Positions 11,001 to 34,201 of a stretch of 63,349 nt of DNA are shown piece by piece. Under the pieces are notes generated by a model. It had not been told where the DNA came from, ran no database searches, and was given only the letters and a program-made list of their open reading frames with translations. Source of the DNA: a virus (Duplodnaviria > Caudoviricetes); IMG/VR virus record IMGVR_UViG_3300011115_000278, positions 1 through 63,349 of that record; one strand, 5' to 3'. The first letter of the stretch is position 1, and each line of letters opens with the position of its first letter. Both the position numbers and the translations under genes were made by a program.

Positions 11001-11454
11001 CTTTGGCTCAACCGCCGCAATGACTACTATGATAACGGACAGCTTGTTAAACCCAACGCGAGTTGATCGCCCACTGCACAAGTACGCATTGTTCAGTAAT
11101 TACTTGTATGACCCAGTTGGTACACGCCGCATGACTGAGTTCTACGAGGAACGTGAAAAAGTTGGCAAGGCTAACACCACGCTAAACGAGTTGATGAAAA
11201 CTGACTTAACCCGTGCTGAAAAATACGCAAATGAGCATTCCGATGAACTTATACTTGAAGGTATGGTTAACTCTACGCTTGAGCAACTGGAACGCACTCG
11301 GGCGTATCGCAAGTATCTAAACAGTCCTGACGGCGCTACAGAAATGAGTAAGGAAGACCGCGAGAGTTCACTCAAAGAAATTAAACAGATGGAACTTCAA
11401 TACGTTAACTGGGTTCGTGAAGCTAAAACTGAGCTACGTAACGTTCAACGCTAA
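5074..11454 (+). CDS. Large polyvalent virion protein (zincin-like metallopeptidase plus LPD38-like C-terminus)
   Basis: 2126 aa. HEIGH at 8341-8355 is followed by a downstream E (FAEWFAD). The C-terminal PFFNAYIQG..W..PGELG..P.IE..NK.F.TG pattern resembles LPD38. N-terminus is ejection-protein-like. Confidence 0.7.
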   Translation: MPRFEITAPDGRKFEITAPEGASQSEVLAYAQANYQSIPQGPKESTIGSELVRGGKQVLSSARTGAESLFDKNKAATEGVARSEAIGQEAGIGPSLEAVQKAYQDKGVLSAAGEAVSQIPRALAGQGANLASMYAAGKAGAAAGAPFGARGRLVGGAAGAAGALLPQFMGSNVERQASEQMDEGKEVDINRTKAYTSAAVQAALEGAGTAFTLGKRVVSGILGVTEDAALRTAKSQVELVKAAERSLAASAGRGVVRGAAEIPVEVGQQILERYQAGLDLTSPEAFKEYGESAYQAALIGGPLGGAAGAVGRGQARSQVEQQRRAEEAARPAPPPPEEIVPGAKLPEEAPVGTQGTLFTPKEMGKRVPEPKEEPAPAKPAAVQQGEQATLGLDFQREYTDLFKERDRLREGPQTPEVKARVAELTGQLTSYDEADIGRRQAEKIIREERIAKEAEQKAADEAGAQRFPGLAGVTPTPTTPTGITQADIDAVGLPLKTSKQWITDNVLGKTVEEIKALVQRDPKLISGTGARAGVLKALIAPQPAAFEEKPNEPTITKTDKPQGELDLGGGESGVGVSGKPTGTDVVQPGTGVPATTGTSATPNGLGLAPAGQPAGTGTTPEGTQPTAVTLSPEAQAAKGLLDAIDKGGVPLNPSKINAIARGLGLDVKKSAKPQETIARLREAVARETQSATTSPVTGAAATTTTTTRPKTTTGAATKTATTKETQAPATTGAPKVVNPFAALVKDTGTAETTVEEEAPKPAKTKSPFDISGPSTIGKKLQTETEETKAGQAAARAARAAEEAEKAAAEAKKTADKITKADEARKAEEAKKAEETRKAEEAKKAEEARKAEEARKAEEARKAKEAKKAEEARKAEEARKAEEAKKAAVAKQFYDQLVVQPTWSKIFGTPRTPIVYEDANFALVRQLNKLKQVRYYAINRQGEESRYPIQMRANQPSWLLAGDYEVLRDAGQALELKETELARNNPNGPFSTGKNIVAANSLDPAIAGYTKNLLNSLGLGHLRVFIHSKPDTFDSSYIDTYKLYGPFARLAEIREPTVNGSATNLGIDGRTYGIYLRSGLTDGQRLEVLAHEIGHIVQAQLYDTASSAEQKAITNEYLAWRAKAKVATKRDLMYMLRNREDAEANIKRSEAYNDADTLASTMQEFDSYWISFAEWFADNVSRWATTNEKPLSIADKFFSRVAQMMRDLVAIVTSRKYPPAKSVADFLNKAGPANFVVQSNISLESNSEIKEQFSISFSDEQLIDSMGPLNRDDKSGLKKLLVGVKANPDIGYVTKFRTQVTDIAATIEKRLREKFDGAVRNSLGELNPMGLYRQAQDYTKMLLEYFQTGTLYKDKTTGLWKSGMGEGVRPPAEVYALIDKYGEKNGYSRERATQIASRVLEGVRLNEMRRSNAQDGTTFLIHLKDNEIDQLVKAYNADPDLQEMSKLMDEARKAMVDNLVAVGRLSAEEGKLWREVVGYVPFDRETIDSVAANFNKAKKISGKGLAQLGKLPELVGSLERPVGNVFDNYLNTLGWMVGQTLKADATLITLRSLEDIGHAKYLGRTNQGKPNVVGAYVNGEMMYWSVPSKYDVMAFKDLNPPKAGWIRAMGAFSNILRKTVTVLPPFALKQVMDDVQRAIMTSGVKNPGALVWMSLTNFPKLALAELRGIQHPIVKEYGRLGLTGEYDFEAGKPAASLLKDLGYKKRGVFETLIHRLDGITRASDLAVRKAIYDQTMNESKGDELLAQTRAREFINFRRRGANQFVTDMITVIPFFNAYIQGMDVLYRAASGKDSSASVDRAQARQMFYSRAITVTMLSSLYALGKDEDDEDYKEMDLRTRDSNWILGGGYKIGVPGELGAIFKVVPERIVEYMKRQGTPEEQTAFDAMRTTLSYMFEQYLGRAMPIPQAIKPVIEAWANKSFLTGKDLEGYHHRAMDPSMRMTEQTSELAKAIAVFSRDEIGVEVSPIMIDNALRGYFGSTAAMTTMITDSLLNPTRVDRPLHKYALFSNYLYDPVGTRRMTEFYEEREKVGKANTTLNELMKTDLTRAEKYANEHSDELILEGMVNSTLEQLERTRAYRKYLNSPDGATEMSKEDRESSLKEIKQMELQYVNWVREAKTELRNVQR
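6725..6958 (+). CDS. Candidate overprinted 77-aa ORF in the +1 frame of the polyvalent gene
   Basis: GAGGAG at 6712-6717 lies 7 nt before ATG 6725. The product looks amphipathic, while the host frame here is low-complexity G/T/P. Confidence 0.45.
   Translation: MNRPLPKRISLKENLTSEEVSQAWEYLVSLPEPTWYNPEPEFPPPPEHLQHLTDSDWHLLDNLLARELHLKERSPLQ
7534..7731 (+). repeat. 18-nt tandem repeats encoding (KAEEAR/KAEEAK)n charged helix
   Basis: Repeated GAAGAAGC(G/T)(CGT/AAG)AAAGCT units. Confidence 0.9.
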
Positions 11455-23258: not shown

Positions 23259-23812
23259 TTACCCAAGCCACCAAAGTACAAGTGCAAGCGACGATACAAC
23301 TCATGTGCATCATTAAGGCTAACGGTATCCATGATGGCGTCGATGCTTGTGCGAATGTCGGGTTGATGGTCAAACGCCTCCGCCATTGGCTCATTAACCA
23401 AAGCAGCTAAACCTTTGGCTTCTTGCTTAGAAGTTATAACCTTATAACTTTTGGCTTTCTTTACCTTAGCTTCTCGCTTAGCCATTATCTTGGCAGACTT
23501 GATGGGTGTGTACTCTTTACCATTGGGGCGTAGCAAACCGTCGCTATCCTTGTAGATATGCCCTTGGCGTAGCATCTGCCCAATCAATGAGGACACAGAT
23601 GACTTCTTATGCCCTTGCTGCACAAGGATTCGGATTGCATCGTTTCGAGCGCAACCGGAGTTGTCTCGCACAAAGTTAAATGTTGCTTGCGTTACGTTGT
23701 TTGTAGGTTTAAACACGGTTGTTTCCTTAGTTGTTTCCTTAGTTGTTTCAGTTGTTTCAGGTTGTTCCCAAGCTTGCAATATCTTTTGCATTTCTGTTTT
23801 TAAATCAGGCAT
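23255..23812 (-). CDS. Hypothetical protein, possible winged-helix; contains an internal copy of the 16-bp motif
   Basis: Likely start MPDLKTE after a GAGGA SD. The motif encodes KSYKVIT. Confidence 0.6.
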   Translation of the reverse strand: MPDLKTEMQKILQAWEQPETTETTKETTKETTVFKPTNNVTQATFNFVRDNSGCARNDAIRILVQQGHKKSSVSSLIGQMLRQGHIYKDSDGLLRPNGKEYTPIKSAKIMAKREAKVKKAKSYKVITSKQEAKGLAALVNEPMAEAFDHQPDIRTSIDAIMDTVSLNDAHELYRRLHLYFGGLGK

Positions 23813-23978
23813 TGTCATCCTCAAATAGGTTAAGTTGTTTAGGGTCAGGCATGGTGCGTGATAAATCCTCCATGTCACGCAACCGCATCTCCAACCTTTC
23901 AGATAAGACTTTGATTAAACCCGTATGCCCATCGGCATAACGGATTAGTTCCTCATCGGTCAAGTTGTCATAGTTCAT
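23805..23978 (-). CDS. 57-aa acidic protein with QLNLF near the C-terminus (not in ORF track)
   Basis: MNYDNLTDEELIRYADG...PKQLNLFEDDNA; SD GGAG; ATGA-coupled. Confidence 0.6.
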   Translation of the reverse strand: MNYDNLTDEELIRYADGHTGLIKVLSERLEMRLRDMEDLSRTMPDPKQLNLFEDDNA

Positions 23979-24337
23979 CGAAGCTCCATAAAGTTAATAA
24001 GCTTGTTGTCATCGTCGGTAGTGAACCATACGATGTTGTCGGGCGGGGGCACGTTAACCTTCTTAAGATGCCCACCTACCGTTGCGACTGCCCTGATTCT
24101 CTCTAGCCAATCAGGTAAGTCTGTCACTAGCCCACGAGACGCTTCCTCATGTCCATCACGCCACCGCTTGAGTGTGTAGTCACCTTCACGCTCTTCGTAT
24201 CTGCATTCGTACATAGGATTGTCTTTGTGGTATCCAAGTTTATGTTCTAGCATTCGAAGGGCGTCTGACTTAGCTCGCCCATGTCTGTCTGCTACTTCCA
24301 TAATCTCAGTTACCATCGCCTTCACTTTCCCCATCAT
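23975..24337 (-). CDS. Hypothetical protein
   Basis: Likely start MMGKVK after GGGGGA. Confidence 0.6.
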   Translation of the reverse strand: MMGKVKAMVTEIMEVADRHGRAKSDALRMLEHKLGYHKDNPMYECRYEEREGDYTLKRWRDGHEEASRGLVTDLPDWLERIRAVATVGGHLKKVNVPPPDNIVWFTTDDDNKLINFMELR

Positions 24338-25232
24338 GTATCCCCCAATCAAAAGCGCCAAGGATTTCATCCACCTTGATCTTGGTTAAAGCACGAGTGC
24401 TATCTTCTTCACGCAATTCTTTAGGTGTTATGCCAGACAATACCTCTTCAAGCTTACGTGAAGCTTTCGTCAACGCAGGGTCGTTAGTAATATTCATAAC
24501 TTGCAACAACTCACACAAGTCAACGGCATTGGTCACCGTTGTGTCGTGGAACGTACGCTTTTTGCCGTCCACGTCAACAGTCAAGCGATCACTCAACTTA
24601 CTGATAGCGTTATACAAACGAGTCCATGAGTCTTGGTTCGCTGCCTTCAACTTGGCATCAAGTTTCTCTTCGTATTGTGCGATCAGGTTGCGTTGTACCT
24701 CGCTCTCAATGTCTAACCTAAAGTCACCGCCAGTAGGCAAGGGAGTGAACGATGCCTCCATGCGGAAACGCTGAGCCACTTTGCCCCTGCTTGGGTACTC
24801 GCCACGGTCAAACAATGTGCCAAGTTGGAACGCTGCCCCTGCTACGAGTGTCTCGTACTTGTCTAAGAACGCATCGACCAAGCGATGGAACTCGGTGTTG
24901 TGTCTACCCATAGTCTTTTGATACTCAAGCAGTGCCGCAGTGGGCAACAGTCTTGCACCTTGGTCATTCCAAGGAAGCGTCAAGCGATAGTGCTCGGCTC
25001 GGGCACGGGCTTGAAACTTGGTGATAGCTTCTAACTCTTTGCACTCAGCGAACAAGTTCTTGTACACCGATGCCGCCTTCTTGGAGCCTGACCCTTTGGC
25101 GATGGTGACCTCGGCTTGCGTACTCTTGTCTTGCTTGCGACCCGAGTAGACTGCGATGTTTAAGTCCACCATCATGGCAGACCTAGCTACGCCTGCAATA
25201 GGCTTTTCTGTTTCAATTGTGTAGTAGTTCAT
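24306..25232 (-). CDS. DUF3150-like protein
   Basis: 308-aa helical protein with TLPW..G.RLLP and NITNDP.L; neighbour of the AAA+/VWA pair. Confidence 0.55.
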   Translation of the reverse strand: MNYYTIETEKPIAGVARSAMMVDLNIAVYSGRKQDKSTQAEVTIAKGSGSKKAASVYKNLFAECKELEAITKFQARARAEHYRLTLPWNDQGARLLPTAALLEYQKTMGRHNTEFHRLVDAFLDKYETLVAGAAFQLGTLFDRGEYPSRGKVAQRFRMEASFTPLPTGGDFRLDIESEVQRNLIAQYEEKLDAKLKAANQDSWTRLYNAISKLSDRLTVDVDGKKRTFHDTTVTNAVDLCELLQVMNITNDPALTKASRKLEEVLSGITPKELREEDSTRALTKIKVDEILGAFDWGIHDGESEGDGN

Positions 25233-25263
25233 GGTTTCTCCAAAAGTTATAAGGTTATAAGTT

Positions 25264-25536
25264 TTACCGTTTGATGATGACTGTTTCGTCTAGCTTTGCA
25301 GCCAGTTTGATTGTGTCGATGTAGTCTTGGTTCACTGGTGCCACAGTGAATAGCTCGTGTGTTACGACTGGCTTGATAGCCGGTACGTATGCGTTCTGAT
25401 ACCCTTGCGAGCCTAGGTTGTTGCCCACATGAGTCTCAGTTAGGTGTTCGGCATAAGACAAAGTATCGGTAAGGATTTCAAGTTGCCCTGCATCTAATAA
25501 AACGTGATGCCCGTTGATGGTTAGTTTAAATTTCAT
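25264..25536 (-). CDS. Hypothetical protein
   Basis: 90-aa ORF followed by a motif copy. Confidence 0.65.
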   Translation of the reverse strand: MKFKLTINGHHVLLDAGQLEILTDTLSYAEHLTETHVGNNLGSQGYQNAYVPAIKPVVTHELFTVAPVNQDYIDTIKLAAKLDETVIIKR

Positions 25537-25901
25537 AAGTTCACTTGTATGGTTCGTGATACATACATGTAGCCTTGAGCATCGCCTGTGCTATCCTCTT
25601 CAACGTCATCGTCTTCCTCGCCAAGACGAATGAACTCGTACTCATACTCAAGCTCATGCACATCCGCTAAAAACTTGGGAAACATGTCTACCTCGGGGTA
25701 CGATTCGTACCACTTGACTGAGTTAGCATTGAACACCAATATGCGATGCTTGTCGTCCCAACTAAAAGACTCGTTGCCCCATGAATCAAGCACATGTTTA
25801 AATGTGGTGTTCATTAAAAGTTTAAGCTTGTCGTACTCTATCAAGCTATGCTCACTACTCACCGGATAGATGAGCGCTTTTACATCTGATCTATATCCCA
25901 T
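25533..25901 (-). CDS. Hypothetical acidic protein (MGYRSDV...)
   Basis: SD GGAG lies directly after a motif copy. Confidence 0.7.
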   Translation of the reverse strand: MGYRSDVKALIYPVSSEHSLIEYDKLKLLMNTTFKHVLDSWGNESFSWDDKHRILVFNANSVKWYESYPEVDMFPKFLADVHELEYEYEFIRLGEEDDDVEEDSTGDAQGYMYVSRTIQVNL

Positions 25902-25934
25902 GGTTTTCTCCAAAAGTTATAAGGTTATAAGTTT

Positions 25935-27110
25935 TCAAACTTCGACACGAATCGTCGTACCAAATGGTGCAACCATATCGGTTGTGATAGCCCACAAGGT
26001 AGGCACATTGGTGTTACCCCAATCACCTACATAGCCGTCGGTAAACTGCACAATAGCTTGTGGGTTGATGTGGTTTTCACGCAAGTATTCAAACAACACA
26101 GAACCATCTGTACCACCACCGCCCTTGGGTTTCATGTCGGCTACGGCAAACTGACCATCCTCGAATGTCTGATGCCCTGCTACCTGAGTGTCCCAATAGA
26201 TAACATGCGTCTTGGTTGGCTTGACCTCTTCAATGATGGTCTTGATGTTGGAAACGAACGCAGTCATCTCATCGCCACCGAAACATGAACCCGACGTGTC
26301 GAACCCGATGACCAACTCAGTCATAGTAGTTCCCACCATAGAAGGCATGTAAACGTCGTAGCTCAAGAATCTACGATTAGGTTTACGCCATGATGACTCG
26401 TCACGACCTGCGCATGTCTCGGTGATGAAGTCACGCAAGACTTTCTTCCAGTCAATCTTGGGTTGCAACAAGTCACCGAACGCACCATCTGCATCGCCTG
26501 CACCCTTGCCCTGCATCTTGCGACGCACGATCTCGCCCTGACGAATGGCTCGTTGTATCTCATTGCCACGCTCGGCATCCTTGGCAGGGTCACCGCTTGT
26601 TGCATTAGCCCAGTCATGCTCATCGAACCCTTGCTCACCACCTTCGCCACCGCCACCACCCCCGCCTTCCTCTTGCTCTTGCTTGAGGTCTTCGAAGATT
26701 TGCTTGACCGACCATCCACGATATTTAGCATCAGGTTGCACACCTAACTCGGGCATCTTGATGAACCCCTCACCATCATCCATATCCACTAAGGATAAGT
26801 TAACGAAGTGATCTGCTGCGATGTTAGCCAACTGAGCATCCTCGTCGTGCAATGCAGACCATACTTGCAAGTGACGATACGCTTTGTGCTGACCCTCATG
26901 CAAGATGAGGAAGCGCAACTCGGGGTCGGTCTTCATGTGTTCTTCGATGAAGGCAGGGTTGTAGATAACATCCCAACCGTTAGTAGCTGCAGTAGGTACA
27001 TCGTCATTGACATGCACCTTGCCACACGCAAGGATACCGCTATACACACAGAACTTTTTGTGTTGCATGATAGCGATGTGCGCTTTCTTGATTCGATCTT
27101 GTACGTTCAT
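25935..27110 (-). CDS. DUF2201-type metallopeptidase plus VWA-domain protein
   Basis: TAATNG, HEGQH (HExxH), a Gly linker, MIDAS DTSGS, GGGGTD and FTDG. Confidence 0.85.
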   Translation of the reverse strand: MNVQDRIKKAHIAIMQHKKFCVYSGILACGKVHVNDDVPTAATNGWDVIYNPAFIEEHMKTDPELRFLILHEGQHKAYRHLQVWSALHDEDAQLANIAADHFVNLSLVDMDDGEGFIKMPELGVQPDAKYRGWSVKQIFEDLKQEQEEGGGGGGGEGGEQGFDEHDWANATSGDPAKDAERGNEIQRAIRQGEIVRRKMQGKGAGDADGAFGDLLQPKIDWKKVLRDFITETCAGRDESSWRKPNRRFLSYDVYMPSMVGTTMTELVIGFDTSGSCFGGDEMTAFVSNIKTIIEEVKPTKTHVIYWDTQVAGHQTFEDGQFAVADMKPKGGGGTDGSVLFEYLRENHINPQAIVQFTDGYVGDWGNTNVPTLWAITTDMVAPFGTTIRVEV

Positions 27111-27142
27111 GGTTTTCTCCGAAAGTTATAAGGTTATAAGTT

Positions 27143-27742
27143 TTAAAAGCTGTGAGTTAATGGGATGAGCATCTCGGTGTTCTCATCTAGTAGCGTTGCT
27201 ATGCGCTCGGCTAATGCCACCTCTTCGGGTGTTCGTTGTGTAAGGAAAGCAGTGACTAACTGTTCTCGTAGTGCTTTGTTGCGGACGACCATTGAGTAGT
27301 GCGGATTTGCGCTCATATCGTCAAGGCGTTGAATGTTTGTATCAAACCTATCATCCATGTTTTTTACAAACTCTTCGTATGTGATCTTGTAGTAATTCTT
27401 TTTCTCTTCCTCGAAGTGCATCTTAGTCAATGCGCAGTCAGCTTCAAGCAAGCCAATAATTTCAAGGCGTAGCTCGGGGTTAATACTTCGTGGTGACCGA
27501 AAAGATAGGTAGTGTCCATGCGCAGGCTCAGCGTAAATCACAGGTTCTTCACCCGCTATCTTAAAGATGAGACTGCGCACATCTTTAGTCTTGCTTGACC
27601 ACCCACCGCCGTGCCTGCCTGACGCAATGCTTCTACGCACCATGTTGCGTAGCGTCTTAGTCAAACGATTAGGGTTAAAAGTAGCCACGGTGAGGACACC
27701 GGGGGACTGCAGTTGTCTTGCTAATGCGTACATGTTGCTCAT
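27143..27742 (-). CDS. Hypothetical protein
   Basis: Likely start MSNMYA after AAGGA. Confidence 0.65.
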   Translation of the reverse strand: MSNMYALARQLQSPGVLTVATFNPNRLTKTLRNMVRRSIASGRHGGGWSSKTKDVRSLIFKIAGEEPVIYAEPAHGHYLSFRSPRSINPELRLEIIGLLEADCALTKMHFEEEKKNYYKITYEEFVKNMDDRFDTNIQRLDDMSANPHYSMVVRNKALREQLVTAFLTQRTPEEVALAERIATLLDENTEMLIPLTHSF

Positions 27743-27912
27743 GATGGTTTCCTTGGTTTGTTTAAGAGTCCTGTTTGTAAATTCCATGCGTCCTTGGACT
27801 GCACGTAGTTTTGTAGTGGGCGTTGGTATGCCTTGCTGATTCGATTGGGATGCCAATCTTTTTTAACAACGACAATGGTCTGCCCGTTAGCGGTTCGTTC
27901 TACGATAAGCAT
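27739..27912 (-). CDS. Small hypothetical protein (MLIVERTANG...)
   Basis: TAATG-coupled to the upstream micro-ORF; SD GGAG. Confidence 0.55.
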   Translation of the reverse strand: MLIVERTANGQTIVVVKKDWHPNRISKAYQRPLQNYVQSKDAWNLQTGLLNKPRKPS

Positions 27913-28001
27913 TACGGTCTCCAGTAGTAAAGGTCGAGGGCTAGCACAATGATTGCTAGGACTAAGATAAAACGCTCGAAGCGTTCCCAAGGCGTAAACA
28001 T
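27912..28001 (-). CDS. 29-aa single-pass membrane peptide (not in ORF track)
   Basis: MFTPWERFERFILVLAIIVLALDLYYWRP fills the gap exactly. Confidence 0.55.
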   Translation of the reverse strand: MFTPWERFERFILVLAIIVLALDLYYWRP

Positions 28002-28021
28002 AAAGTTATAACCTTATAGGT

Positions 28022-29089
28022 TTAGAAGAACTTACCAAGCTTTGCTGCTTGGGTTGTGAACTTACGGCTACCGCATGCCATGCCTACCTTGGCTTTGTTG
28101 GATGCCAACGAGGTAATGAATAACGCATGTGCCTCGAACGATTCGTTAGCCATACGATCTGCGTAGTCCATCACTGCGTCGATAGTCTTAGCATCGACAC
28201 GACCCGCCAACATAAAGGCGAGAATGAACAACGCACCGGCACTTGTTGGAACCTTGGCTTTGTATGGTTCTCTCACAATGTTCTCGTACAAAGGCAACTG
28301 ATCTGCCAAGTGAATGAGTGCATCCATATCCCTAGCTGCTGCTTCACCCACAGTACCCGCCAATGCAGGCAACAAGGCATCGCCCAACACATGACGCATT
28401 TTGATAATGTTAGATGCTTTCTCAAGTGAACGAGGCGAGCAGTATGCCTTCACGTTGCCCGTCAATGGGTTGAAGATGTAGGGGTTTTTAGCCTTGGGGT
28501 CGAGGTCTACATAACAGTCGAATATCTGTGGGTACTGCTTGGCAAATGCCATAACTTCGGGGGCAATGTTGTTGTCCGATGCCCACTCAAGCCACTGCTC
28601 TACAGTTGGGTTGGCTAGGTTTACCACAGTCATGCGGTTGTAGGCATGGGCAGGGATGTTGTCACCCACGCCATCTGTATCTAGGTTGGTCGTTGCAAAT
28701 ACAATCGAGCCGGTCGGTAGAAGTACATCACCTACACGATGCTCAAGGATAGTCGGCAACAACATGTTCATCACTGGTCGCAGTGACTTACCCAACTCGT
28801 CGAGCATTAGCGCAACAGGGCGGGTTTGATTTCGACCGATACCGAAACGCACATTGGGTGCATACGATGTGGTCATGTTCTCTCGGTCAATGACAGGCAT
28901 AGCCAAGTCACCGAGGTCTAGGTTTGCACAGTCGATGTAGCACATCTGATAGTCAGGTAGCTCTCTACCTAGTGTCGCTAGGATGGACGACTTGCCCACC
29001 CCCGGTTGACCACGCAGTAGGACTGTGTTTGTTGTACCCACATTACGGATAAGGGTCGTTGCTTGTTTGAGATTTAAAGACAGGTTCAT
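28022..29089 (-). CDS. AAA+ ATPase (MoxR/dynein-related type)
   Basis: Walker A GQPGVGKS, Walker B MLDE, sensor ATTN, arginine finger NRM and SPRS. Confidence 0.85.
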   Translation of the reverse strand: MNLSLNLKQATTLIRNVGTTNTVLLRGQPGVGKSSILATLGRELPDYQMCYIDCANLDLGDLAMPVIDRENMTTSYAPNVRFGIGRNQTRPVALMLDELGKSLRPVMNMLLPTILEHRVGDVLLPTGSIVFATTNLDTDGVGDNIPAHAYNRMTVVNLANPTVEQWLEWASDNNIAPEVMAFAKQYPQIFDCYVDLDPKAKNPYIFNPLTGNVKAYCSPRSLEKASNIIKMRHVLGDALLPALAGTVGEAAARDMDALIHLADQLPLYENIVREPYKAKVPTSAGALFILAFMLAGRVDAKTIDAVMDYADRMANESFEAHALFITSLASNKAKVGMACGSRKFTTQAAKLGKFF

Positions 29090-29152
29090 TTTGATTTCCT
29101 TTGATTGAAAGTTATAAGGTTATAAGTTTACTTAAGTTGGCTTACGCCACGT

Positions 29153-29911
29153 TTACAAGACAAAGGTCTCAGAGCGAGACACAATGTACATGTTCTTTTT
29201 GCATTGAGCCATGATGGTTGCCCAACATGCTTTTGCATTTGATTTCTCTACGTATGTGTACTGCGGGTATGCGTACTGACGTTCGAATTTACTGCGAGCG
29301 ATAATCACTTTCCATGTATCGGCTCGGTTGGTATCGGAGAGGGCGTCGGGTAGTCTTACGCCAAACATGCCGTAGTTATCTTTTTCCATATCATCGGGAG
29401 TAGCTACGGCATACAGTAACTTAAACGCATCGGTGAACCCTGACTCTTGCAAGTCATTGGCTAGTGCTTTGGTCGCTGCTCTATCAACCCGCTTTTGCTC
29501 GAACGCTTGAAGTGGCGTGATGACTTCGCCTTGGGCATTGAGAGTGATGCCGTCATAGTAATAATAAAGTTTAGTGCCGACACGAAGCACAGGTTGCGAA
29601 TAGCTTAAGATGCTACGCTTACTCATACCCACGCCTACACCCTCAAAGAAACCAAACGCTTCATTGAGGCGGATGATCGTGGTGTTATGTGTGTGCCATC
29701 CTCTAGTGTCAATCTTCACATCGCCATTGGGATAGGCAGTCAGTATGTCGGTACTCCACATGCGCACCCGCATTGTGTCGTCGTTACCCTTGACCACACG
29801 GAAGTGGCACATGCTACGTTGGTGCGCATTAGCAGGGGCATCGCCCTTGTTCTTGCCACGCTTATACATGTGACGTGATAAGTGCATTGAAAGTTTTGAG
29901 TACATGCTCAT
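29153..29911 (-). CDS. Hypothetical early protein
   Basis: 252-aa ORF; SD GGAG after a motif copy. Confidence 0.7.
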   Translation of the reverse strand: MSMYSKLSMHLSRHMYKRGKNKGDAPANAHQRSMCHFRVVKGNDDTMRVRMWSTDILTAYPNGDVKIDTRGWHTHNTTIIRLNEAFGFFEGVGVGMSKRSILSYSQPVLRVGTKLYYYYDGITLNAQGEVITPLQAFEQKRVDRAATKALANDLQESGFTDAFKLLYAVATPDDMEKDNYGMFGVRLPDALSDTNRADTWKVIIARSKFERQYAYPQYTYVEKSNAKACWATIMAQCKKNMYIVSRSETFVL

Positions 29912-29944
29912 TGTGTTTCTCCAAAAGTTATAAGGTTATAAGTT

Positions 29945-30163
29945 TTACCTGCCACCCTTGTGGCTAGAGTTGAGGTTGAGTAAGAGAGTGCGGTCAGTCA
30001 CTACGATGTAGTTAGACTTAGGCATTGGCACGATGGTGTGTTTAACCTTGCGTGCTTCGCTTTCACCACATGCCATACATGTGGGTCGTGTCATCTTCGC
30101 TCGTTGGGGTTCGACCCTCACGGCATAACAACAAGTGCAGATCGGTAAGTGATAGTTGGTCAT
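29945..30163 (-). CDS. Small C4 zinc-finger protein (DksA/TraR-like spacing)
   Basis: CTCC...CMAC. Confidence 0.55.
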   Translation of the reverse strand: MTNYHLPICTCCYAVRVEPQRAKMTRPTCMACGESEARKVKHTIVPMPKSNYIVVTDRTLLLNLNSSHKGGR

Positions 30164-30262
30164 GGTGTTCCCTCACAGTTTGTCTAGCGTCTATACGGCT
30201 TGCGAACCAACGGCTAAGCCGTTGACATTCGTACCCCTCCATCTCATCTTGAAGTAATCGGG

Positions 30263-30430
30263 TCATGGTGTTACCTCGGCAAAGTCGTAAAGCTCTGACT
30301 CACCTGATGTTTTGTAATACATTTCCCACGCTTTCTCATCGAGTAGCTGACGGGCTTGATCTTCGTTCTCAGCTTCTACTTCCACCTCAACGGCGAAGCT
30401 AATAACTACAGTTGCGGTATACGTTTTCAT
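30263..30430 (-). CDS. 55-aa acidic hypothetical protein (not in ORF track)
   Basis: MKTYTATVVISFAVEVEVEAENEDQA...; SD GGGAG. Confidence 0.6.
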   Translation of the reverse strand: MKTYTATVVISFAVEVEVEAENEDQARQLLDEKAWEMYYKTSGESELYDFAEVTP

Positions 30431-30432
30431 AA

Positions 30433-30666
30433 TTACTCCCACAGATGTTTCATTGCAACTACGGCATCTGCCATAGATTTCTTGGTAGTCATGATGCGCA
30501 GGACGTCATTGTCTTTAGCCATTGCAACCATGAGGTTGGTTAGTATTTCCTCGTACTTAGCGATGCGGTCGTACTGTGCCCACGCACTACACACTACGCA
30601 TCCATCCTCGTGGTCGGGGCAACGCTCACCCCAATGGTCGGTCATTGCTTGTTCGATATAGTTCAT
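30433..30666 (-). CDS. Hypothetical early protein
   Basis: 77 aa with CPD....CVVC. Confidence 0.6.
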   Translation of the reverse strand: MNYIEQAMTDHWGERCPDHEDGCVVCSAWAQYDRIAKYEEILTNLMVAMAKDNDVLRIMTTKKSMADAVVAMKHLWE

Positions 30667-30896
30667 TTGGTTGCCCTCTTGGTAAAGTCTTCCTCTTGCA
30701 ATGGAGGTAGCTTCAATGCTTCCTTCATCATCTTGAACACACGCTTAAAGGACTTCATATCCTCTGAGCCTGTGCATGGCGAGCCGTAGCCCGTTGGTTT
30801 GCCTTTCTTGTCGTAGCAAACCTCTTGTAAGCAGTACCAGTCTTCGCCTGCATTCAATGACTTGGTGTTAACGATCCGATAGTTCCACGTAAACAT
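30663..30896 (-). CDS. Hypothetical early protein (MFTWNYRIV...)
   Basis: SD GGAG after a motif copy. Confidence 0.7.
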   Translation of the reverse strand: MFTWNYRIVNTKSLNAGEDWYCLQEVCYDKKGKPTGYGSPCTGSEDMKSFKRVFKMMKEALKLPPLQEEDFTKRATK

Positions 30897-30927
30897 AAGC
30901 GTTCTCCAAAAGTTATAAGGTTATAAG

Positions 30928-31164
30928 TTACTCAATCACCACCACACGACGAACGGGTTCGGCTTCGTCATCTTCGGGTTCGTCTTCGTCATGGATTAGC
31001 CTGTCGCATCTGTGGTAGTCAGACATCTGCACCGACCCATTGAATACTTGGGACACCTTGGGGGCTAGCGTTGTGCGCCAGTAGTCACCCGACCCGTGGG
31101 CAAGATGCACATCGGCACTTTCGTCAAAGTTTTGCAATAGCTCAATTAGTTCGGACACTTTCAT
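30928..31164 (-). CDS. Hypothetical early protein (MKVSELIELL...)
   Basis: SD GGAG; 78 aa. Confidence 0.7.
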   Translation of the reverse strand: MKVSELIELLQNFDESADVHLAHGSGDYWRTTLAPKVSQVFNGSVQMSDYHRCDRLIHDEDEPEDDEAEPVRRVVVIE

Positions 31165-31190
31165 ATCATTCTCCAGTTAGGGTTAGGTGT

Positions 31191-31406
31191 TTAGATAAAG
31201 TCAATAGCGTATTCGTTACCAGCTTCGCTTAGCTGCAGTTCACACAACACGACACTCTTGAGTGCCTGCATCATGCGGTAAACATCAAGCGCTTTAAATT
31301 GATCAGCGTTCTTGATGAATAGTGTGCCGTATGCGAAGTACGCATTGTCGGCAATGTCAGAGTTAACTTCCTCGATTCGTTTTAGTACAACGGTTTCAAG
31401 TCCCAT
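31191..31406 (-). CDS. Hypothetical early protein, first CDS after the candidate ncRNA
   Basis: SD GGAG after a motif copy; start MGLETV. Confidence 0.65.
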   Translation of the reverse strand: MGLETVVLKRIEEVNSDIADNAYFAYGTLFIKNADQFKALDVYRMMQALKSVVLCELQLSEAGNEYAIDFI

Positions 31407-31439
31407 AGGTTTCTCCAAAAGTTATAAGGTTATAGGTTT

Positions 31440-32060
31440 GGTGTGGTACACACCCAAGAGGGGACAGCATCCCCTCCCAGTTGAATACAACTTGTTGACA
31501 CGGCTAATGCCGTGAGTAGTGCGTTATTTGATTTGGCTTTTTTACTACGATAGGGTTTGTCGTTCTGGCATATCCTGACCCTTGTCAGTTCCAGTTCCCA
31601 TGGTTGTCTTAGCGGTAGCATCCCGAGGTGCTACATAAACTCCACTGAGCAGTTTGTATGATTGGCATACAAATACTGCACCCATTTAGGTAGTGTGCGT
31701 ATGCTTTGCATGTTGCTATCGTTTCGTTGACACTAGCCTATTGAAACTACACCACAACATACTGGGGCTAAACCCAACGTCTATTCACCTAGGAAGAAAA
31801 GTAACTTACATCTTTGGCGGTTCAGTATCCTTACTCAACAATAGCCAACTGGCATGGCACTACCTGCCCTTGGGGACTTACAGTAAACTCTCGGAATCAG
31901 GGAAACCCAAGTGAATGGGATATGAAACACGCATAAGAGGTGCGGTGGCTATTGAGGCATCGGGATACGACCAACTCTTGTATGAACTGGACACTAATCT
32001 GTATGGCTTCTGCAATTGAAGCAGCGACGGCTCGAAGGTATGTGCATCGTATGTGGGAGG
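31440..32060 (-). ncRNA. Candidate large structured non-coding RNA / leader
   Basis: No credible ORF; many perfect hairpins, nested long-range helices and a pseudoknot. Lies downstream of a consensus promoter and boxA. Confidence 0.6.
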
Positions 32061-32111
32061 AAAGTTATAAGGTTATAACTTTATAAGATACACAAAAACC
32101 TAACTAATAAA

Positions 32112-32151
32112 TTGTTAAAGAACTAAACAAGCCGAGGCGTTACTCGACTTG
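32112..32151 (-). promoter_or_regulatory. Hairpin followed by a boxA-like antitermination site
   Basis: Minus strand CAAGTCGAG-TAACGC-CTCGGCTTG, then GTTCTTTAACAA (compare rrn boxA TGCTCTTTAACA). Confidence 0.6.
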
Positions 32152-32159
32152 ATAAATCA

Positions 32160-32188
32160 ATTATAACAGATTATAGGTATGTTGTCAA
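32160..32188 (-). promoter_or_regulatory. Perfect-consensus sigma70 early promoter
   Basis: TTGACA (32188-32183), 17-nt spacer, TATAAT (32165-32160). Confidence 0.9.
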
Positions 32189-32193
32189 GCGTT

Positions 32194-32682
32194 TTATAAT
32201 CCATCTACCTCATCCCAATCCTTCAAAATTTCCGCCTTGTGTGCCACGGCTTCGGGGTTTCGCTTGGGGTCGTTCTTCTTTCCCTGTGCGACGATCTGAT
32301 GCACTCTGATCTCTGAGATGCCGTAGTCTTGGGCGAGTTGTTTTCTTTTGACCCCGAGCATCGCTCTGCGGTATACATCTGCATCTCGTTCCGCCAAAAG
32401 TTTCTTCCTTGGTATGGTGGCTTCGACTCGTGGGGCTTTCTCGTCTAATACTTTGATGATGGCTTTTTTGATTGCAGAGTGTTGACTCATGCCATTGGCT
32501 ACTGCATAACCTTGGGCGATGTTGAGGTGTTTGGTTCCAATCTTGAGCCAGAGTTGTAGTGCTGCAACTGCAGCCCCTTCTAAGCCATCTTCGTGGGTTT
32601 GTGCCAGATCGTCTGCAACGCTGAGTGGAAGTTCAATGGTGAGGGAATGGGTTTGGAAGCTTGCGGTGGTGGAGTCAGTCAT
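32194..32682 (-). CDS. HTH transcriptional regulator with a Mor-like C-terminal HTH
   Basis: RDADVYRRAMLGVKRKQLAQDYGISEIRVHQIV. Confidence 0.65.
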   Translation of the reverse strand: MTDSTTASFQTHSLTIELPLSVADDLAQTHEDGLEGAAVAALQLWLKIGTKHLNIAQGYAVANGMSQHSAIKKAIIKVLDEKAPRVEATIPRKKLLAERDADVYRRAMLGVKRKQLAQDYGISEIRVHQIVAQGKKNDPKRNPEAVAHKAEILKDWDEVDGL

Positions 32683-32766
32683 AGTAAGTCCTTGGGGGTT
32701 AAAAGCTTGAGTGTATCAGAAAAGTTATAAGGTTATAAGTTTTTGGTTGGGTATATTATAGATGTT

Positions 32767-33178
32767 GTTACATTGTAACGAAATGGGGGGTGGTCGTTAC
32801 AGGGGGTGTGTTACCCTTAGGGAGAATTGAGAATTCAATGAAATCAACAAGTTAGGTGCGGGTTGCTTTAGGGGTTATAGGTGTTTTATAGCTTTGTTAC
32901 ACCGTAACAGGGATTGAAGAGAGCGTGAGTCAAAAACTACCACTATAAACTATAACGACCATGAAACCATGAAAACAAGAGGTTATAGCTATAGCCTGAT
33001 TTTGACCGTCACAATTCTAAAAAGACCGTTACAATGTAACAATATAATATATTATATATATATCTATCTCTCTCTCTTGGTTTTTGAAACGCTTAGTATT
33101 ACATTTGCGGGGCTATTTGCAAAAAAACAACGTTACGGGGTTTTGTAACAAATCGGGGGTGTTTTGTTACATTGTAAC
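32767..33178. other. Putative replication origin: GTTAC-N3-GTAAC palindromes around an AT-rich tract
   Basis: Copies at 32767, 32896, 33028 and 33166, plus an N8 variant at 33132; AT-only run at 33041-33063. Confidence 0.5.
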
Positions 33179-33386
33179 GCAGGGTAAAATCATAGTAGTG
33201 CCGCCCAAAAGTTATAACCTTATAACTTTTGCTGATTTTTGTCCCCTTGGTCGCCCCGAGCCTCTCTCCCTCACTCGCGCACACGCACTCGCGCGCTCGC
33301 TCTCCCGCACCGCCTAACTACTATGACGTTTTCCAAACGGACAATGCAAGCGCACGCATGATGCTCATGCTGCAAAAATTTTGGGC

Positions 33387-33411
33387 AAAAAAAAGCCACC
33401 TTGCGGTGGCT
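33387..33411 (-). terminator. Intrinsic terminator
   Basis: Minus strand AGCCACC-GCAA-GGTGGCT-TTTTTTT. Confidence 0.85.
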
Positions 33412-33661: not shown

Positions 33662-34201
33662 TTACTTAACTGATTCGGTGAAATCAGGGATAAACTCGAT
33701 AATCGCATCAAGCAAAGCGCCCTTCAGCAAGGTTTGATTTAACAGGGTGCATTGGTGTAATGCTTTTTGCAAAGTGGCAATCAAAGCGGGCATATCGGTA
33801 ACTTCTACTTTTCCAGCTTTAGCAGTAGCTTCAGCTTTAGCGTTTACTTCAGCTTTAGCTTCAGCTTTTTTGTTTGCCAAATCACGAGAAAATGGCACGT
33901 TTGTTTCGAACGCTATCCAAAAACATTGTGCATACTGTTGCGCTGAGTTTTTGCTGATATATTCCTTTGATACTAGCGTATCAAATAAGGCTTTAACTTC
34001 ACCCCTTGCTTCGTTCGTTTTTGAATTGCCCTTCAAATACTCAGCTTTCGTTGTGTTGCAAGCGATGACGTGCGCATCTACCAGTTTTTGAATTTCCTGA
34101 TTTTGCTTGCTGACACTATCAGCTTCCAGCTTTTCAGCTTTAGCTTTAGCAGTTGCGAACGCACCAATAATTGATGCATGAATTTTCGTGAATTGTGCCA
34201 T
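33662..34201 (-). CDS. Hypothetical immediate-early protein (Ala/Lys-rich)
   Basis: 179 aa with its own promoter. Confidence 0.7.
   Translation of the reverse strand: MAQFTKIHASIIGAFATAKAKAEKLEADSVSKQNQEIQKLVDAHVIACNTTKAEYLKGNSKTNEARGEVKALFDTLVSKEYISKNSAQQYAQCFWIAFETNVPFSRDLANKKAEAKAEVNAKAEATAKAGKVEVTDMPALIATLQKALHQCTLLNQTLLKGALLDAIIEFIPDFTESVK

What the first reader, a model, noticed from the sequence alone, without database searches (positions are those of the whole stretch)
31440..32060. Candidate ~620-nt highly structured, pseudoknotted non-coding RNA at the head of the early transcript
Seen: in an otherwise gene-packed arm, this stretch has no credible CDS. It follows a perfect sigma70 promoter plus boxA and is bracketed by two copies of the 16-bp motif. 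Nested long-range complements (plus-strand coordinates) are 32054-60/31473-79 (7 bp, joins the two ends), 32046-51/31546-51, 31984-91/31590-97 (8 bp), 31963-68/31825-30, 31946-54/31839-47 (9 bp) and 31906-11/31869-74. A crossing two-part pseudoknot pairs 31858-65/31688-95 (8 bp) and 31914-19/31681-86. Local hairpins lie at 31440-54, 31458-76, 31499-514, 31575-88, 31615-34, 31649-79 and 32006-22. The end-closing helix competes with the 31458-76 hairpin, hinting at a switch. Established: large phage-associated ncRNAs of unknown function exist (GOLLD, ROOL), as do RNA antiterminators (HK022 put). I could not assign this sequence to any class. Inference: it is a new large ncRNA, ribozyme or antiterminator which, with the motif array and the HTH protein, forms an early-gene control system.
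Basis: partly seen in the sequence, partly recalled or inferred. Interest (0 to 1): 0.88.

Follow-up and report, generated by a model that had tools for sequence, protein, structure and literature searches.

The report
New large structured phage RNA
A freshwater phage encodes a roughly 600-base, intricately folded non-coding RNA of a family not described before, made behind a ribosomal-RNA-style anti-termination signal; what it does is still unknown.

Summary
The stretch is real and non-coding. It is part of a structured RNA on the MINUS strand, running from about 32153 to about 31540.

- **Family:** the same element occurs in 46 further viral or metagenome loci. All come from uncultured phage contigs.
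- **Not found elsewhere:** Rfam 15 gives no match. Deposited phage genomes and one-per-species bacterial genomes give none either.
- **Covariation is strong.** For the 3' half, 97.2% of cells pair against 82.3% when shuffled, 18 pairs change on both sides, and 0 of 500 shuffles reach this. A 4-bp long-range helix that encloses a swappable peripheral domain pairs in 100% of cells, with two covarying positions.
- **Strand:** 71 G-U cells against 2 A-C cells fix the strand.
- **Leader:** all 33 distinct leaders have a consensus sigma70 promoter. Most also have an rrn-type boxB-boxA-boxC signal.
- **Expression:** in four metatranscriptomes, whole contigs lie only on this RNA.

Its long-range helices a, b and c and its 'switch' do not.

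Function is inferred: most likely a stable RNA made under rrn-style, Rho-resistant transcription.

The parts
32160..32188 (-). sigma70 promoter (TTGACA, 17 nt, TATAAT, with TG)
   Evidence: scores it 12 of 12. TTGACA-N16-18-TAYAAT is present in 33 of 33 distinct leaders.
32128..32151 (-). boxB-like hairpin at the 5' end of the transcript (9 bp, 6-nt loop)
   Evidence: One search flagged it as terminator-like. In relatives it keeps pairing through changes on both sides, and a roughly 30-nt insert often separates it from the U-run (read by eye).
32112..32123 (-). boxA (GUUCUUUAACAA)
   Evidence: It matches E. coli rrnB boxA plus spacer. 31 of 33 leaders are boxA-like. The 20-mer of relatives equals true rrn leaders.
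32089..32103 (-). boxC-like GU-rich element
   Evidence: Present in 30 of 33 leaders. Likeness to E. coli boxC is only partial.
32061..32082 (-). 5' copy of the phage-specific palindrome (perfect 22-mer here)
   Evidence: The palindrome covaries symmetrically between phages.
32010..32030 (-). Block B1: 5' strand of long-range helix H2 (CGUC, 32029..32026) and hairpin H1 (32024..32010)
   Evidence: In one search, H2 pairs in 100% of cells (GC to AU 3 times, UA to CG 12 times) and H1 in 100% of cells with compensatory changes.
31792..32004 (-).
   Evidence: Relatives carry forms of about 18, 60 or 190 nt in its place. RNAalifold on 10 long-form sequences recovers d and e. Little variation is available.
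31708..31786 (-). Block B2: GAAUAG, 3' strand of H2 (31781..31778), hairpin hp1 (31776..31763) and a long hairpin with conserved internal loops (31762..31708)
   Evidence: In one search, helices 1 and 2 have 8 of 11 pairs with changes on both sides. Model R1 scores 126.9 bits here.
31679..31700 (-). Invariant 22-nt core strand (ACGCAYACUACYUAAAUGGGUG)
   Evidence: It is the anchor shared by all members. A closing helix with 31556..31545 is proposed, but it is invariant and therefore untested (helices 3 and 4).
31545..31679 (-). Block B3: helix Pa with hairpin Pb (31679..31649), an extra hairpin (31646..31611), helices Pc/Pd with a conserved GGAUAU loop (31594..31565), and the 3' strand of the closing helix (31556..31545)
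   Evidence: In one search, helices 5 to 7 have 10 of 13 pairs with changes on both sides. In many relatives Pb is capped by GAAA.
31440..31544 (-). 3' module (type X): A-rich linker and three hairpins (31514..31499, 31476..31458, 31454..31440)
   Evidence: Close relatives carry an unrelated hairpin module (type Y) instead. The metatranscriptome contigs do not cover it.
31404..31434 (-). 3' copy of the palindrome, followed by the Shine-Dalgarno site and ATG of the next gene

Best explanation
The stretch belongs to an RNA gene on the minus strand. It is the window's copy of a previously undescribed family of phage RNAs, roughly 400 to 700 nt from promoter to core end, depending on which peripheral domain is carried.

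**Shown**
- Host sigma70 RNA polymerase would start at a consensus promoter.
- The first 90 nt of the transcript carry a hairpin, a boxA and a GU-rich element, in the order and with the sequence of an rRNA-operon leader.
- Downstream lies a conserved multi-domain fold:
  - hairpin H1;
  - a 4-bp long-range helix H2 that encloses a swappable peripheral domain;
  - a three-helix block with conserved internal loops;
  - an invariant 22-nt strand;
  - a junction of two to three further helices.
- In metatranscriptomes, whole contigs cover only this RNA.

**Inferred**
- The leader recruits the host Nus factors, as at rrn operons. Polymerase then becomes resistant to Rho while it transcribes 0.6 kb of untranslated RNA, and goes on into the roughly 20-kb operon beyond.
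- The RNA accumulates as a discrete, stable molecule from about 32153 to about 31540.
- It acts through its conserved junction and core strand, by binding a protein or nucleic acid or by catalysis. It does not regulate one particular gene.
For: **Family and novelty**
- The window plus 46 loci score >=84 bits with model R1. Most of these sequences trained the model.
- There are 41 distinct variants.
- Rfam gives no match for the window or for six relatives.
- 50,697 phage records give no match, and four cultured distant relatives give none.

**Structure**
- 32 pairs, 97.2% of cells paired against 82.3% shuffled, 18 pairs changed on both sides, 0 of 500 shuffles as high, slid controls 30-44%.
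- 98.8% against 92.0%, 0 of 500, and H2 paired in 100% of cells.
- RNAalifold independently finds 16 of 30 pairs with compensation.

**Strand:** 71 G-U cells against 2 A-C cells.

**Not coding:**

**Leader**
-.
- The same boxA 17-mer sits at the head of, or within, tRNA arrays in 6 of 32 unrelated viral loci. Phages therefore use it for untranslated RNA genes.

**Expression**
- Whole contigs of 594, 351, 279 and 271 nt lie on 31554-32144, 31791-32139, 31816-32091 and 31532-31787.
- They come from four RNA runs of four studies.
- None covers the flanking CDSs.

**Not tied to one gene:** about 13 unrelated first downstream genes follow it.

**No terminator:** no terminator-like site follows the RNA.
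Against: - The single-sequence folding z-score is modest, at -1.89.
- Contigs cannot show RNA ends, strand or level. Their breaks may reflect strain variation, and the runs were chosen because they hold this stretch.
- The core strand and its proposed closing helix never vary, so that part of the fold is untested.
- The partner of the 5' flank of B1 was not found.
- No terminator separates the RNA from the operon, so a purely cis-acting leader role remains open.
- Nus-factor recruitment rests on sequence likeness alone.
- Host and phage are uncultured.
- Supplementary tables of PMC10690425 list 8,495 IMG/VR candidate RNAs of 29-151 nt. I could not see them, and they may already list pieces of this RNA.
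Confidence: 0.55

Rival explanations
1. It is a cis-acting operon leader. The folded RNA stays with, or signals to, the transcribing polymerase or the first ribosome-binding site, in the manner of a put- or EAR-like processive antiterminator or a very large riboswitch. It sets expression of the whole downstream early/replication operon and has no life of its own.
For: - It lies directly between a strong promoter and a roughly 20-kb co-oriented operon, with no terminator after it.
- Invariant junction nucleotides flanked by variable helices are typical of ligand-binding leaders. That generalisation is recalled, not tested here.
- In short forms the 3' module abuts the Shine-Dalgarno site.
Against: - No expression platform was found: there is no terminator-like hairpin and no helix pairing with the Shine-Dalgarno site (and inspection).
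- The first downstream gene differs among about 13 unrelated families.
- The 3' module next to the gene is swapped independently of the core.
- boxA already provides antitermination.
- The metatranscriptome contigs stop at the end of the core.
Confidence: 0.25
2. It is a passive element. The structure serves only to stabilise the transcript or to block Rho or RNases, or it is a relic, with no specific molecular partner.
For: - The function is unknown.
- The modular swapping of domains shows tolerance to change.
Against: - A 22-nt invariant strand and several invariant loops persist among variants whose helices have changed on both sides.
- The architecture is conserved in all 32 distinct core sequences.
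- This degree of constraint is not expected of a spacer.
Confidence: 0.1
3. One reading: a 620-nt RNA (31440-32060) closed by helix 32054-60/31473-79, with nested helices b to f, a crossing two-part pseudoknot, and a switch between the closing helix and the 31458-76 hairpin.
For: - All the listed arms are perfectly complementary in the window.
- Helices d and e are conserved, and RNAalifold recovers them.
- Complementarity between the peripheral domain and the core exceeds shuffles in this subtype; 2 of 200 shuffles are as strong for the window.
Against: - The set shows no covariation: 86.6% paired against 86.6% shuffled, 250 of 500.
- Helices a and b break in relatives.
- Helix c conflicts with the covarying helix Pc.
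- The partner arm of helix f is deleted in L054.
- The number of such complements is at chance level.
- The long peripheral domain is absent from most family members.
- The 3' module holding one arm of helix a is replaced in close relatives.
Confidence: 0.05
4. It is a DNA-level element (replication origin, packaging site or protein-binding array) or a cluster of small protein genes, not an RNA.
For: - Palindromes flank it.
- Short ORFs exist in it.
Against: - G-U pairs are tolerated on one strand only: 71 G-U cells against 2 A-C cells.
- Whole contigs of RNA libraries lie on it.
- No ORF is conserved.
Confidence: 0.03

Closest known systems
rRNA-operon leader (boxB-boxA-boxC) that assembles the rrn antitermination complex
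   Same: - It has the same order of elements after a strong sigma70 promoter.
- boxA plus spacer is near-identical to E. coli rrnB.
- In relatives the 20-mer is identical to leaders of Pasteurellaceae, Sodalis, Shewanella and others.
- A long, untranslated, highly structured RNA follows it.
- Background on the complex comes from abstracts in search listings only (PMC10250234, PMC6614801).
   Different: - It is encoded by a phage.
- The RNA behind it is not rRNA or tRNA.
- Protein-coding genes follow in the same transcription unit.
- A phage-specific palindrome sits between boxC and the RNA.
- Nus-factor dependence has not been tested.
Phage antitermination RNAs: lambda nut sites and HK022 put (definitions recalled from memory)
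   Same: They are RNA signals at the start of phage early operons that make polymerase resistant to termination.
   Different: - nut has boxA before boxB and needs the N protein.
- put is a pair of stem-loops of about 70 nt that acts without Nus factors.
- Here the order is that of rrn operons, and the structured part is five to eight times larger and has multiple domains.
GOLLD and ROOL, large ornate phage-associated RNAs of unknown function (bioRxiv 10.1101/2024.12.08.627333; abstract in a search listing)
   Same: - It is a large (over 300 nt), multi-domain RNA.
- It is carried by phages, is known mainly from metagenomes, and has no known function.
   Different: - Their Rfam models give no match.
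- No tRNA lies in the window.
- It sits at the head of an operon, behind an rrn-type leader.
- Whether it forms multimers is unknown.
Phage tRNA arrays preceded by the same boxA 17-mer
   Same: They are untranslated RNA genes in phages placed behind a promoter and GTTCTTTAACAATTTAT. This holds for 6 of 32 unrelated viral loci.
   Different: The product here is a single large RNA of a new fold, not tRNAs. R1 finds no relative in those loci.
Candidate structured RNAs mined from IMG/VR (PMC10690425; passages read)
   Same: They come from the same source collection and were found by the same kind of covariation evidence.
   Different: - Those candidates are 29-151 nt long. This RNA runs from about 270 nt (core of the short forms) to about 610 nt (the window's whole transcript).
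- Overlap could not be checked because the supplements are closed.

Membership tests
rrn-type antitermination leader | A boxA of consensus GCUCUUUAACAA type shortly after a strong promoter | tested here: met
   - GUUCUUUAACAA lies at 32123..32112.
- Alignment with E. coli rrnB is.
- 31 of 33 leaders are boxA-like.
- The 20-mer of relatives is found in 90 stretches of gammaproteobacterial genomes; in the one locus tested it lies 168 nt upstream of 16S.
rrn-type antitermination leader | A boxB hairpin upstream of boxA and a GU-rich boxC downstream (order B-A-C) | tested here: inconclusive
   - The hairpin at 32151..32128 is conserved with compensatory changes (read by eye).
- A GU-rich element is present in 30 of 33 leaders, but it resembles E. 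coli boxC only partly.
rrn-type antitermination leader | Nus-factor-dependent resistance to Rho | not testable with these tools
   This needs transcription assays.
Any Rfam 15 family (including GOLLD, ROOL, riboswitches, ribozymes, introns) | A match to the family's covariance model | tested here: not met
   - No match at gathering score in the whole window.
- No match at E<=10 in 31000-32700.
- No match in the RNA region of six relatives at E<=1.
GOLLD / ROOL | Frequent adjacency to tRNA genes (recalled) | tested here: not met
   The window holds no tRNA.
HK022 put-type antiterminator (definition recalled) | Two stem-loops directly after the promoter that act without boxA | tested here: not met
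   The leader has one hairpin and then boxA.
Riboswitch or attenuator leader | An expression platform (terminator or SD-sequestering helix) and association with one gene class | tested here: not met
   - No terminator-like site lies between the core and the next gene.
- About 13 unrelated first downstream genes follow the RNA.
Protein-coding gene | An open reading frame conserved among homologues | tested here: not met
   - The longest sense ORFs are 22-78 aa, at inconsistent places.
- The ORF from the invariant AUG runs 5-52 aa.

The most novel reading that the evidence does not exclude
These phages carry a 'stable-RNA operon' of their own. They borrow the host's rRNA antitermination and folding machinery to make a large RNA machine, either a ribonucleoprotein scaffold, a decoy or a ribozyme.

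- Its invariant 22-nt strand would be the working surface.
- Its peripheral domain is exchanged between lineages.
- It would be tied to a phage-specific hairpin-recognising factor. That factor's sites also precede most early cistrons and, in two lineages, are grafted onto the RNA itself.

This would be a new functional class of viral RNA.
Probability: 0.3. Interest if true: 0.92.

Novelty: new variant of a known kind. Interest (0 to 1): 0.78.

Why it matters
Bacterial and phage RNAs above 300 nt with many covarying helices and invariant junctions are rare. Past examples turned out to be ribozymes, RNP cores or, recently, self-assembling cages.

This one stands out for four reasons:
- It has strong comparative support.
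- It has a defined promoter and 5' end.
- There is evidence that it accumulates in nature.
- It is linked to the rRNA antitermination signal. That suggests phages exploit the host's rRNA transcription and folding machinery for their own structured RNA.

It is directly testable. The cassette (promoter, leader, RNA) is about 0.7 kb and uses sigma70 and rrn-type signals, which should work in laboratory Gammaproteobacteria.

Tried and rejected
**Leads that gave nothing**
- **Similarity searches with no match:**
  - blastn of 31300-32300 against deposited phages;
  - blastn of the RNA against E. coli genomes;
  - the core 22-mer in one-per-species genomes.
- **Model R1** found nothing in KPP25, RHph_TM3_14A, Rollin or phiA008. 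The tool notes that an empty answer there shows little. It also found nothing in 32 other boxA-bearing viral loci.
- **All-against-all column covariation** was swamped by relatedness and was not used.
- **A partner for the 5' flank of B1** (UUCGAG / CGCAAG / ACAAA variants) was sought by eye. None was found.
- **A trans target for the core:**
  - Its complement in the window gives only a chance-level 2-mismatch site at 1944-1958; 55 of 100 shuffles do as well.
  - The longest complements to seven rrn-region loci were 8-12 nt, near expectation.
- **Ideas dropped after looking at relatives.** These rest on inspection only.
  - A hammerhead-like CUGAUGA...GAAA in some short forms is just a GAAA-capped hairpin in other members.
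  - GGA motifs as CsrA sites are not conserved in loops.
- **Recalled leads, not tested:**
  - The internal loop CUAAAU/UAUC of the proposed closing helix resembles the 11-nt GAAA-tetraloop receptor.
  - The loops of the long hairpin resemble sarcin-ricin or loop-E motifs.
- **Parts of the window without cover** in the RNA runs are not counted as evidence of silence beyond what the report says.
- **Doubtful metagenome hits:** L057 (no R1 match) and L068 (23.8 bits) are probably chance hits of the pattern. I left them out of the family count.
- **Rows dropped:**
  - Loci cut by contig ends (L041, L046, L051, L057, L065, L067) and L068 lacked one or more anchors and were left out of the block alignments.
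  - Identical rows were collapsed.
  - A5 used 27 of the 32 distinct sequences; near-duplicates L038, L040, L044, L047 and L060 were left out.
- **Literature:** searches found no description of this RNA or of an rrn-type leader ahead of a large phage ncRNA. The library does not hold most subscription papers, and supplements are closed.
Full report
**Setting.** The window is a complete 63,349-bp virus record.
- Its DNA polymerase is only 33-35% identical to those of Pseudomonas phages KPP25 and phiR18 and of Rhizobium RHph_TM phages.
- Genes from about 34.2 kb down to 11.7 kb lie on the minus strand.
- The finding sits between a Mor-like regulator gene (32682..32194; Pfam Mor E 0.0015, PHROG 'late transcriptional activator' E 2e-5) and a 75-aa gene (31418..31191).
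- Any RNA here therefore reads on the minus strand.

- No credible ORF lies in the stretch.
- A 12/12 sigma70 promoter is at 32188..32160.
- boxA is at 32123..32112.
- The 16-mer motif lies on both sides, among 13 places in 23.4-33.2 kb against 0.44 matches expected.
- All listed complementary arms are perfect.

From this one sequence alone the case is weak.
- The MFE z-score is -1.89 on the minus strand and -1.50 on the plus strand.
- The counts of 6-9-bp complements are close to those of shuffles.

**Relatives.**
- Protein-anchored searches gave 13 loci, some of them from the same contigs.
- BLAST showed the non-coding stretch is conserved at 84-93%, but with whole blocks replaced.
- An invariant 22-mer then found 22 viral stretches.
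- A gapped pattern found 26 metagenome stretches.
- None was found in 185,579 species genomes.
- With the window that makes 49 loci, with 41 distinct sequences around the core.
- 46 of the 48 fetched loci score >=84 bits with a model of one block. Most were training sequences. L057 and L068 are doubtful.
- DNA runs that hold the stretch are riverine, lake, freshwater and viral metagenomes.

**Architecture, in RNA sense** (window coordinates):
1. promoter;
2. boxB-like hairpin;
3. in many relatives, a roughly 30-nt insert;
4. boxA;
5. a GU-rich element;
6. the phage-specific palindrome;
7. a CA-rich spacer of variable length;
8. block B1, holding the 5' strand of helix H2 and hairpin H1;
9. a peripheral domain that comes in short, medium and long forms (about 18, 60 and 190-210 nt; the window has the long form, 32004..31792);
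10. block B2 (GAAUAG, the 3' strand of H2, hairpin hp1, and a long hairpin with conserved internal loops);
11. the invariant 22-nt core;
12. block B3 (Pa/Pb, an optional extra hairpin, Pc/Pd);
13. the invariant CCCUAUCGUAG;
14. one of two unrelated 3' hairpin modules;
15. the palindrome, Shine-Dalgarno site and ATG of the next gene.

**Evidence for structure.**
- RNAalifold on 32 distinct B2+B3 sequences predicts 30 pairs, 16 of them with compensatory changes.
- For 32 pairs that I specified:
  - 97.2% of 975 cells pair, against 82.3% after shuffling;
  - 18 pairs change on both sides;
  - no shuffle of 500 reaches any of the five measures;
  - sliding the partners drops pairing to 30-44%.
- In the 5' part, H2 pairs in all 29 distinct sequences across a domain of 18 to 211 nt, with GC to AU in 3 sequences and UA to CG in 12. 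H1 and hp1 also covary.
- The structures came from these same alignments, which favours them against the slid controls. The shuffles also ignore relatedness. Even so, the margin is large, and many pairs show three or four pair types.
- G-U cells number 71 and A-C cells 2, so the folded strand is the minus strand.
- No ORF is conserved.
- The closing helix I propose for the core (CUAC/GUAG and GGGU/ACCC) never varies and is therefore unproven (helices 3 and 4).

- Six of its seven local hairpins are the helices above.
- 32006-22 is a window-specific alternative to H1.
- On 10 long-form sequences its long-range set has no more pairing or covariation than shuffles.
  - Helices a and b break.
  - Helix c uses the 5' strand of Pc, whose true partner covaries with it.
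- Helices d and e are conserved, and RNAalifold recovers them.
- The two pseudoknot arms, together with helix f between them, form a split complement to the invariant core.
- Core-to-domain duplexes are stronger than shuffles in the window's subtype (1-4 of 200 shuffles as strong in four of its five variants, 11 of 200 in L039) and in the unrelated long domain of L036 (3 of 200).
- They are not stronger in L054, L060, L053 or the short and medium forms.
- This stays open. It cannot explain why the core is invariant in members that lack such a domain.

**The leader.**
- boxA plus spacer reads like E. coli rrnB.
- All 33 distinct leaders have TTGACA-N16-18-TAYAAT; 31 have a boxA-like word and 30 the GU-rich element.
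- The relatives' 20-mer occurs in 90 stretches of Pasteurellaceae, Sodalis, Shewanella, Pantoea and other genomes, several copies per genome.
- In one tested locus it lies 168 nt before 16S rRNA.
- The 17-mer also occurs in 32 viral loci outside this family. In 6 of them it heads or sits within tRNA arrays on the same strand; in others it precedes long ORF-free stretches.
- From abstracts seen in search listings: the rrn elements boxB, boxA and boxC assemble a modified polymerase (PMC10250234). That polymerase resists Rho and helps rRNA fold (PMC6614801).
- Inference: the phage uses this signal so that polymerase can cross 0.6 kb of untranslated RNA and continue.

**Expression.**
- Six RNA libraries hold part of the stretch.
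- In the four that I laid, whole contigs lie inside 31532-32144. Their 5' ends at 32144 and 32139 are just downstream of the predicted start (about 32153). Their 3' ends at 31554 and 31532 are at the end of the core.
- No contig covers the flanking genes, although 5 kb was offered.
- Contigs cannot prove ends or levels, and the runs were chosen for holding this stretch. This is a hint of a discrete, abundant RNA, not proof.

**Cis or trans.**
- No terminator-like site follows the RNA.
- The first downstream gene belongs to about 13 unrelated families.
- The 3' module is exchanged independently of the core.
- This argues against a gene-specific riboswitch. It leaves two readings: a stable RNA made at the head of the operon (preferred), or an operon-level leader.

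**The motif array.**
- The palindrome lies 4 nt before the Shine-Dalgarno site of 7 of the 12 sites shown.
- It changes symmetrically between phages. TATAA..TTATA, TCTAA..TTAGA and CTTAA..TTAAG come; TCTAATATTAGA comes.
- It is always in the RNA's leader.
- In L036 and in L053/L061 it also sits at the tip of hairpin Pd inside the RNA.
- All copies within a phage share one sequence, so a phage-encoded factor probably reads them. Whether it reads DNA or RNA is open.
- The Mor-like protein is an unlikely reader, because its recognition helix does not change with the palindrome (by eye).

**Novelty.**
- Rfam 15 has nothing.
- Searches found no description.
- PMC10690425 mined IMG/VR for RNAs of 29-151 nt (passages read). 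Its supplementary lists could not be opened, so overlap of fragments cannot be excluded.

**Verdict.** This is a real, new family of large structured phage RNA with an rrn-type leader.

Noticed in passing
window 23431-33228 (13 places; e.g. 25244-25263, 27123-27142, 29925-29944, 30910-30929): A palindrome of about 22 nt (AAACTTATAACCTTATAACTTT) lies 4 nt before the Shine-Dalgarno site of many minus-strand early genes. It covaries symmetrically between related phages, which suggests a phage-encoded factor reads it. Whether it is a promoter, a processing site or a translational site is unknown.
   Followed up: partly
L036 (copy 66 nt after the core) and L053/L061 (copy 171 nt after the core): In two divergent lineages the phage's own palindrome or hairpin is grafted onto the tip of hairpin Pd inside the structured RNA. 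In L053 the same 27-nt hairpin also sits in the leader.
   Followed up: partly
L091, L094, L099, L100, L103, L106, L079/L101 (viral contigs outside this family): The same rrn-type boxA 17-mer, often behind a promoter-like site and a hairpin, precedes ORF-free stretches of about 140-570 nt that R1 does not match. These may be further unknown phage RNAs behind rrn-style leaders.
   Followed up: no
L078, L080, L084, L088, L090, L093: These phage tRNA arrays hold up to 26 tRNAs, and L078 also has a tmRNA. The boxA 17-mer sits at their head or within them, on the same strand.
   Followed up: partly
window 33828-34188: This is the only other part of the 5-kb stretch with substantial cover in the RNA libraries. 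It lies in the 179-aa Ala/Lys/Glu-rich gene (33662-34201, minus strand), which has no family match.
   Followed up: no
window 31515-31530: The type-X 3' module holds ACGCACUACUCACGG, which resembles the invariant core ACGCACACUACCU. It may be a partial duplication.
   Followed up: no
window 33394-33411 (minus strand): A strong terminator-like hairpin with a U-run follows the first two leftward genes. The RNA cassette therefore heads a second transcription unit, not the very first early transcript.
   Followed up: no
window 5074-11454: This 2,126-aa ORF matches only PHROGs of unknown function.
   Followed up: no
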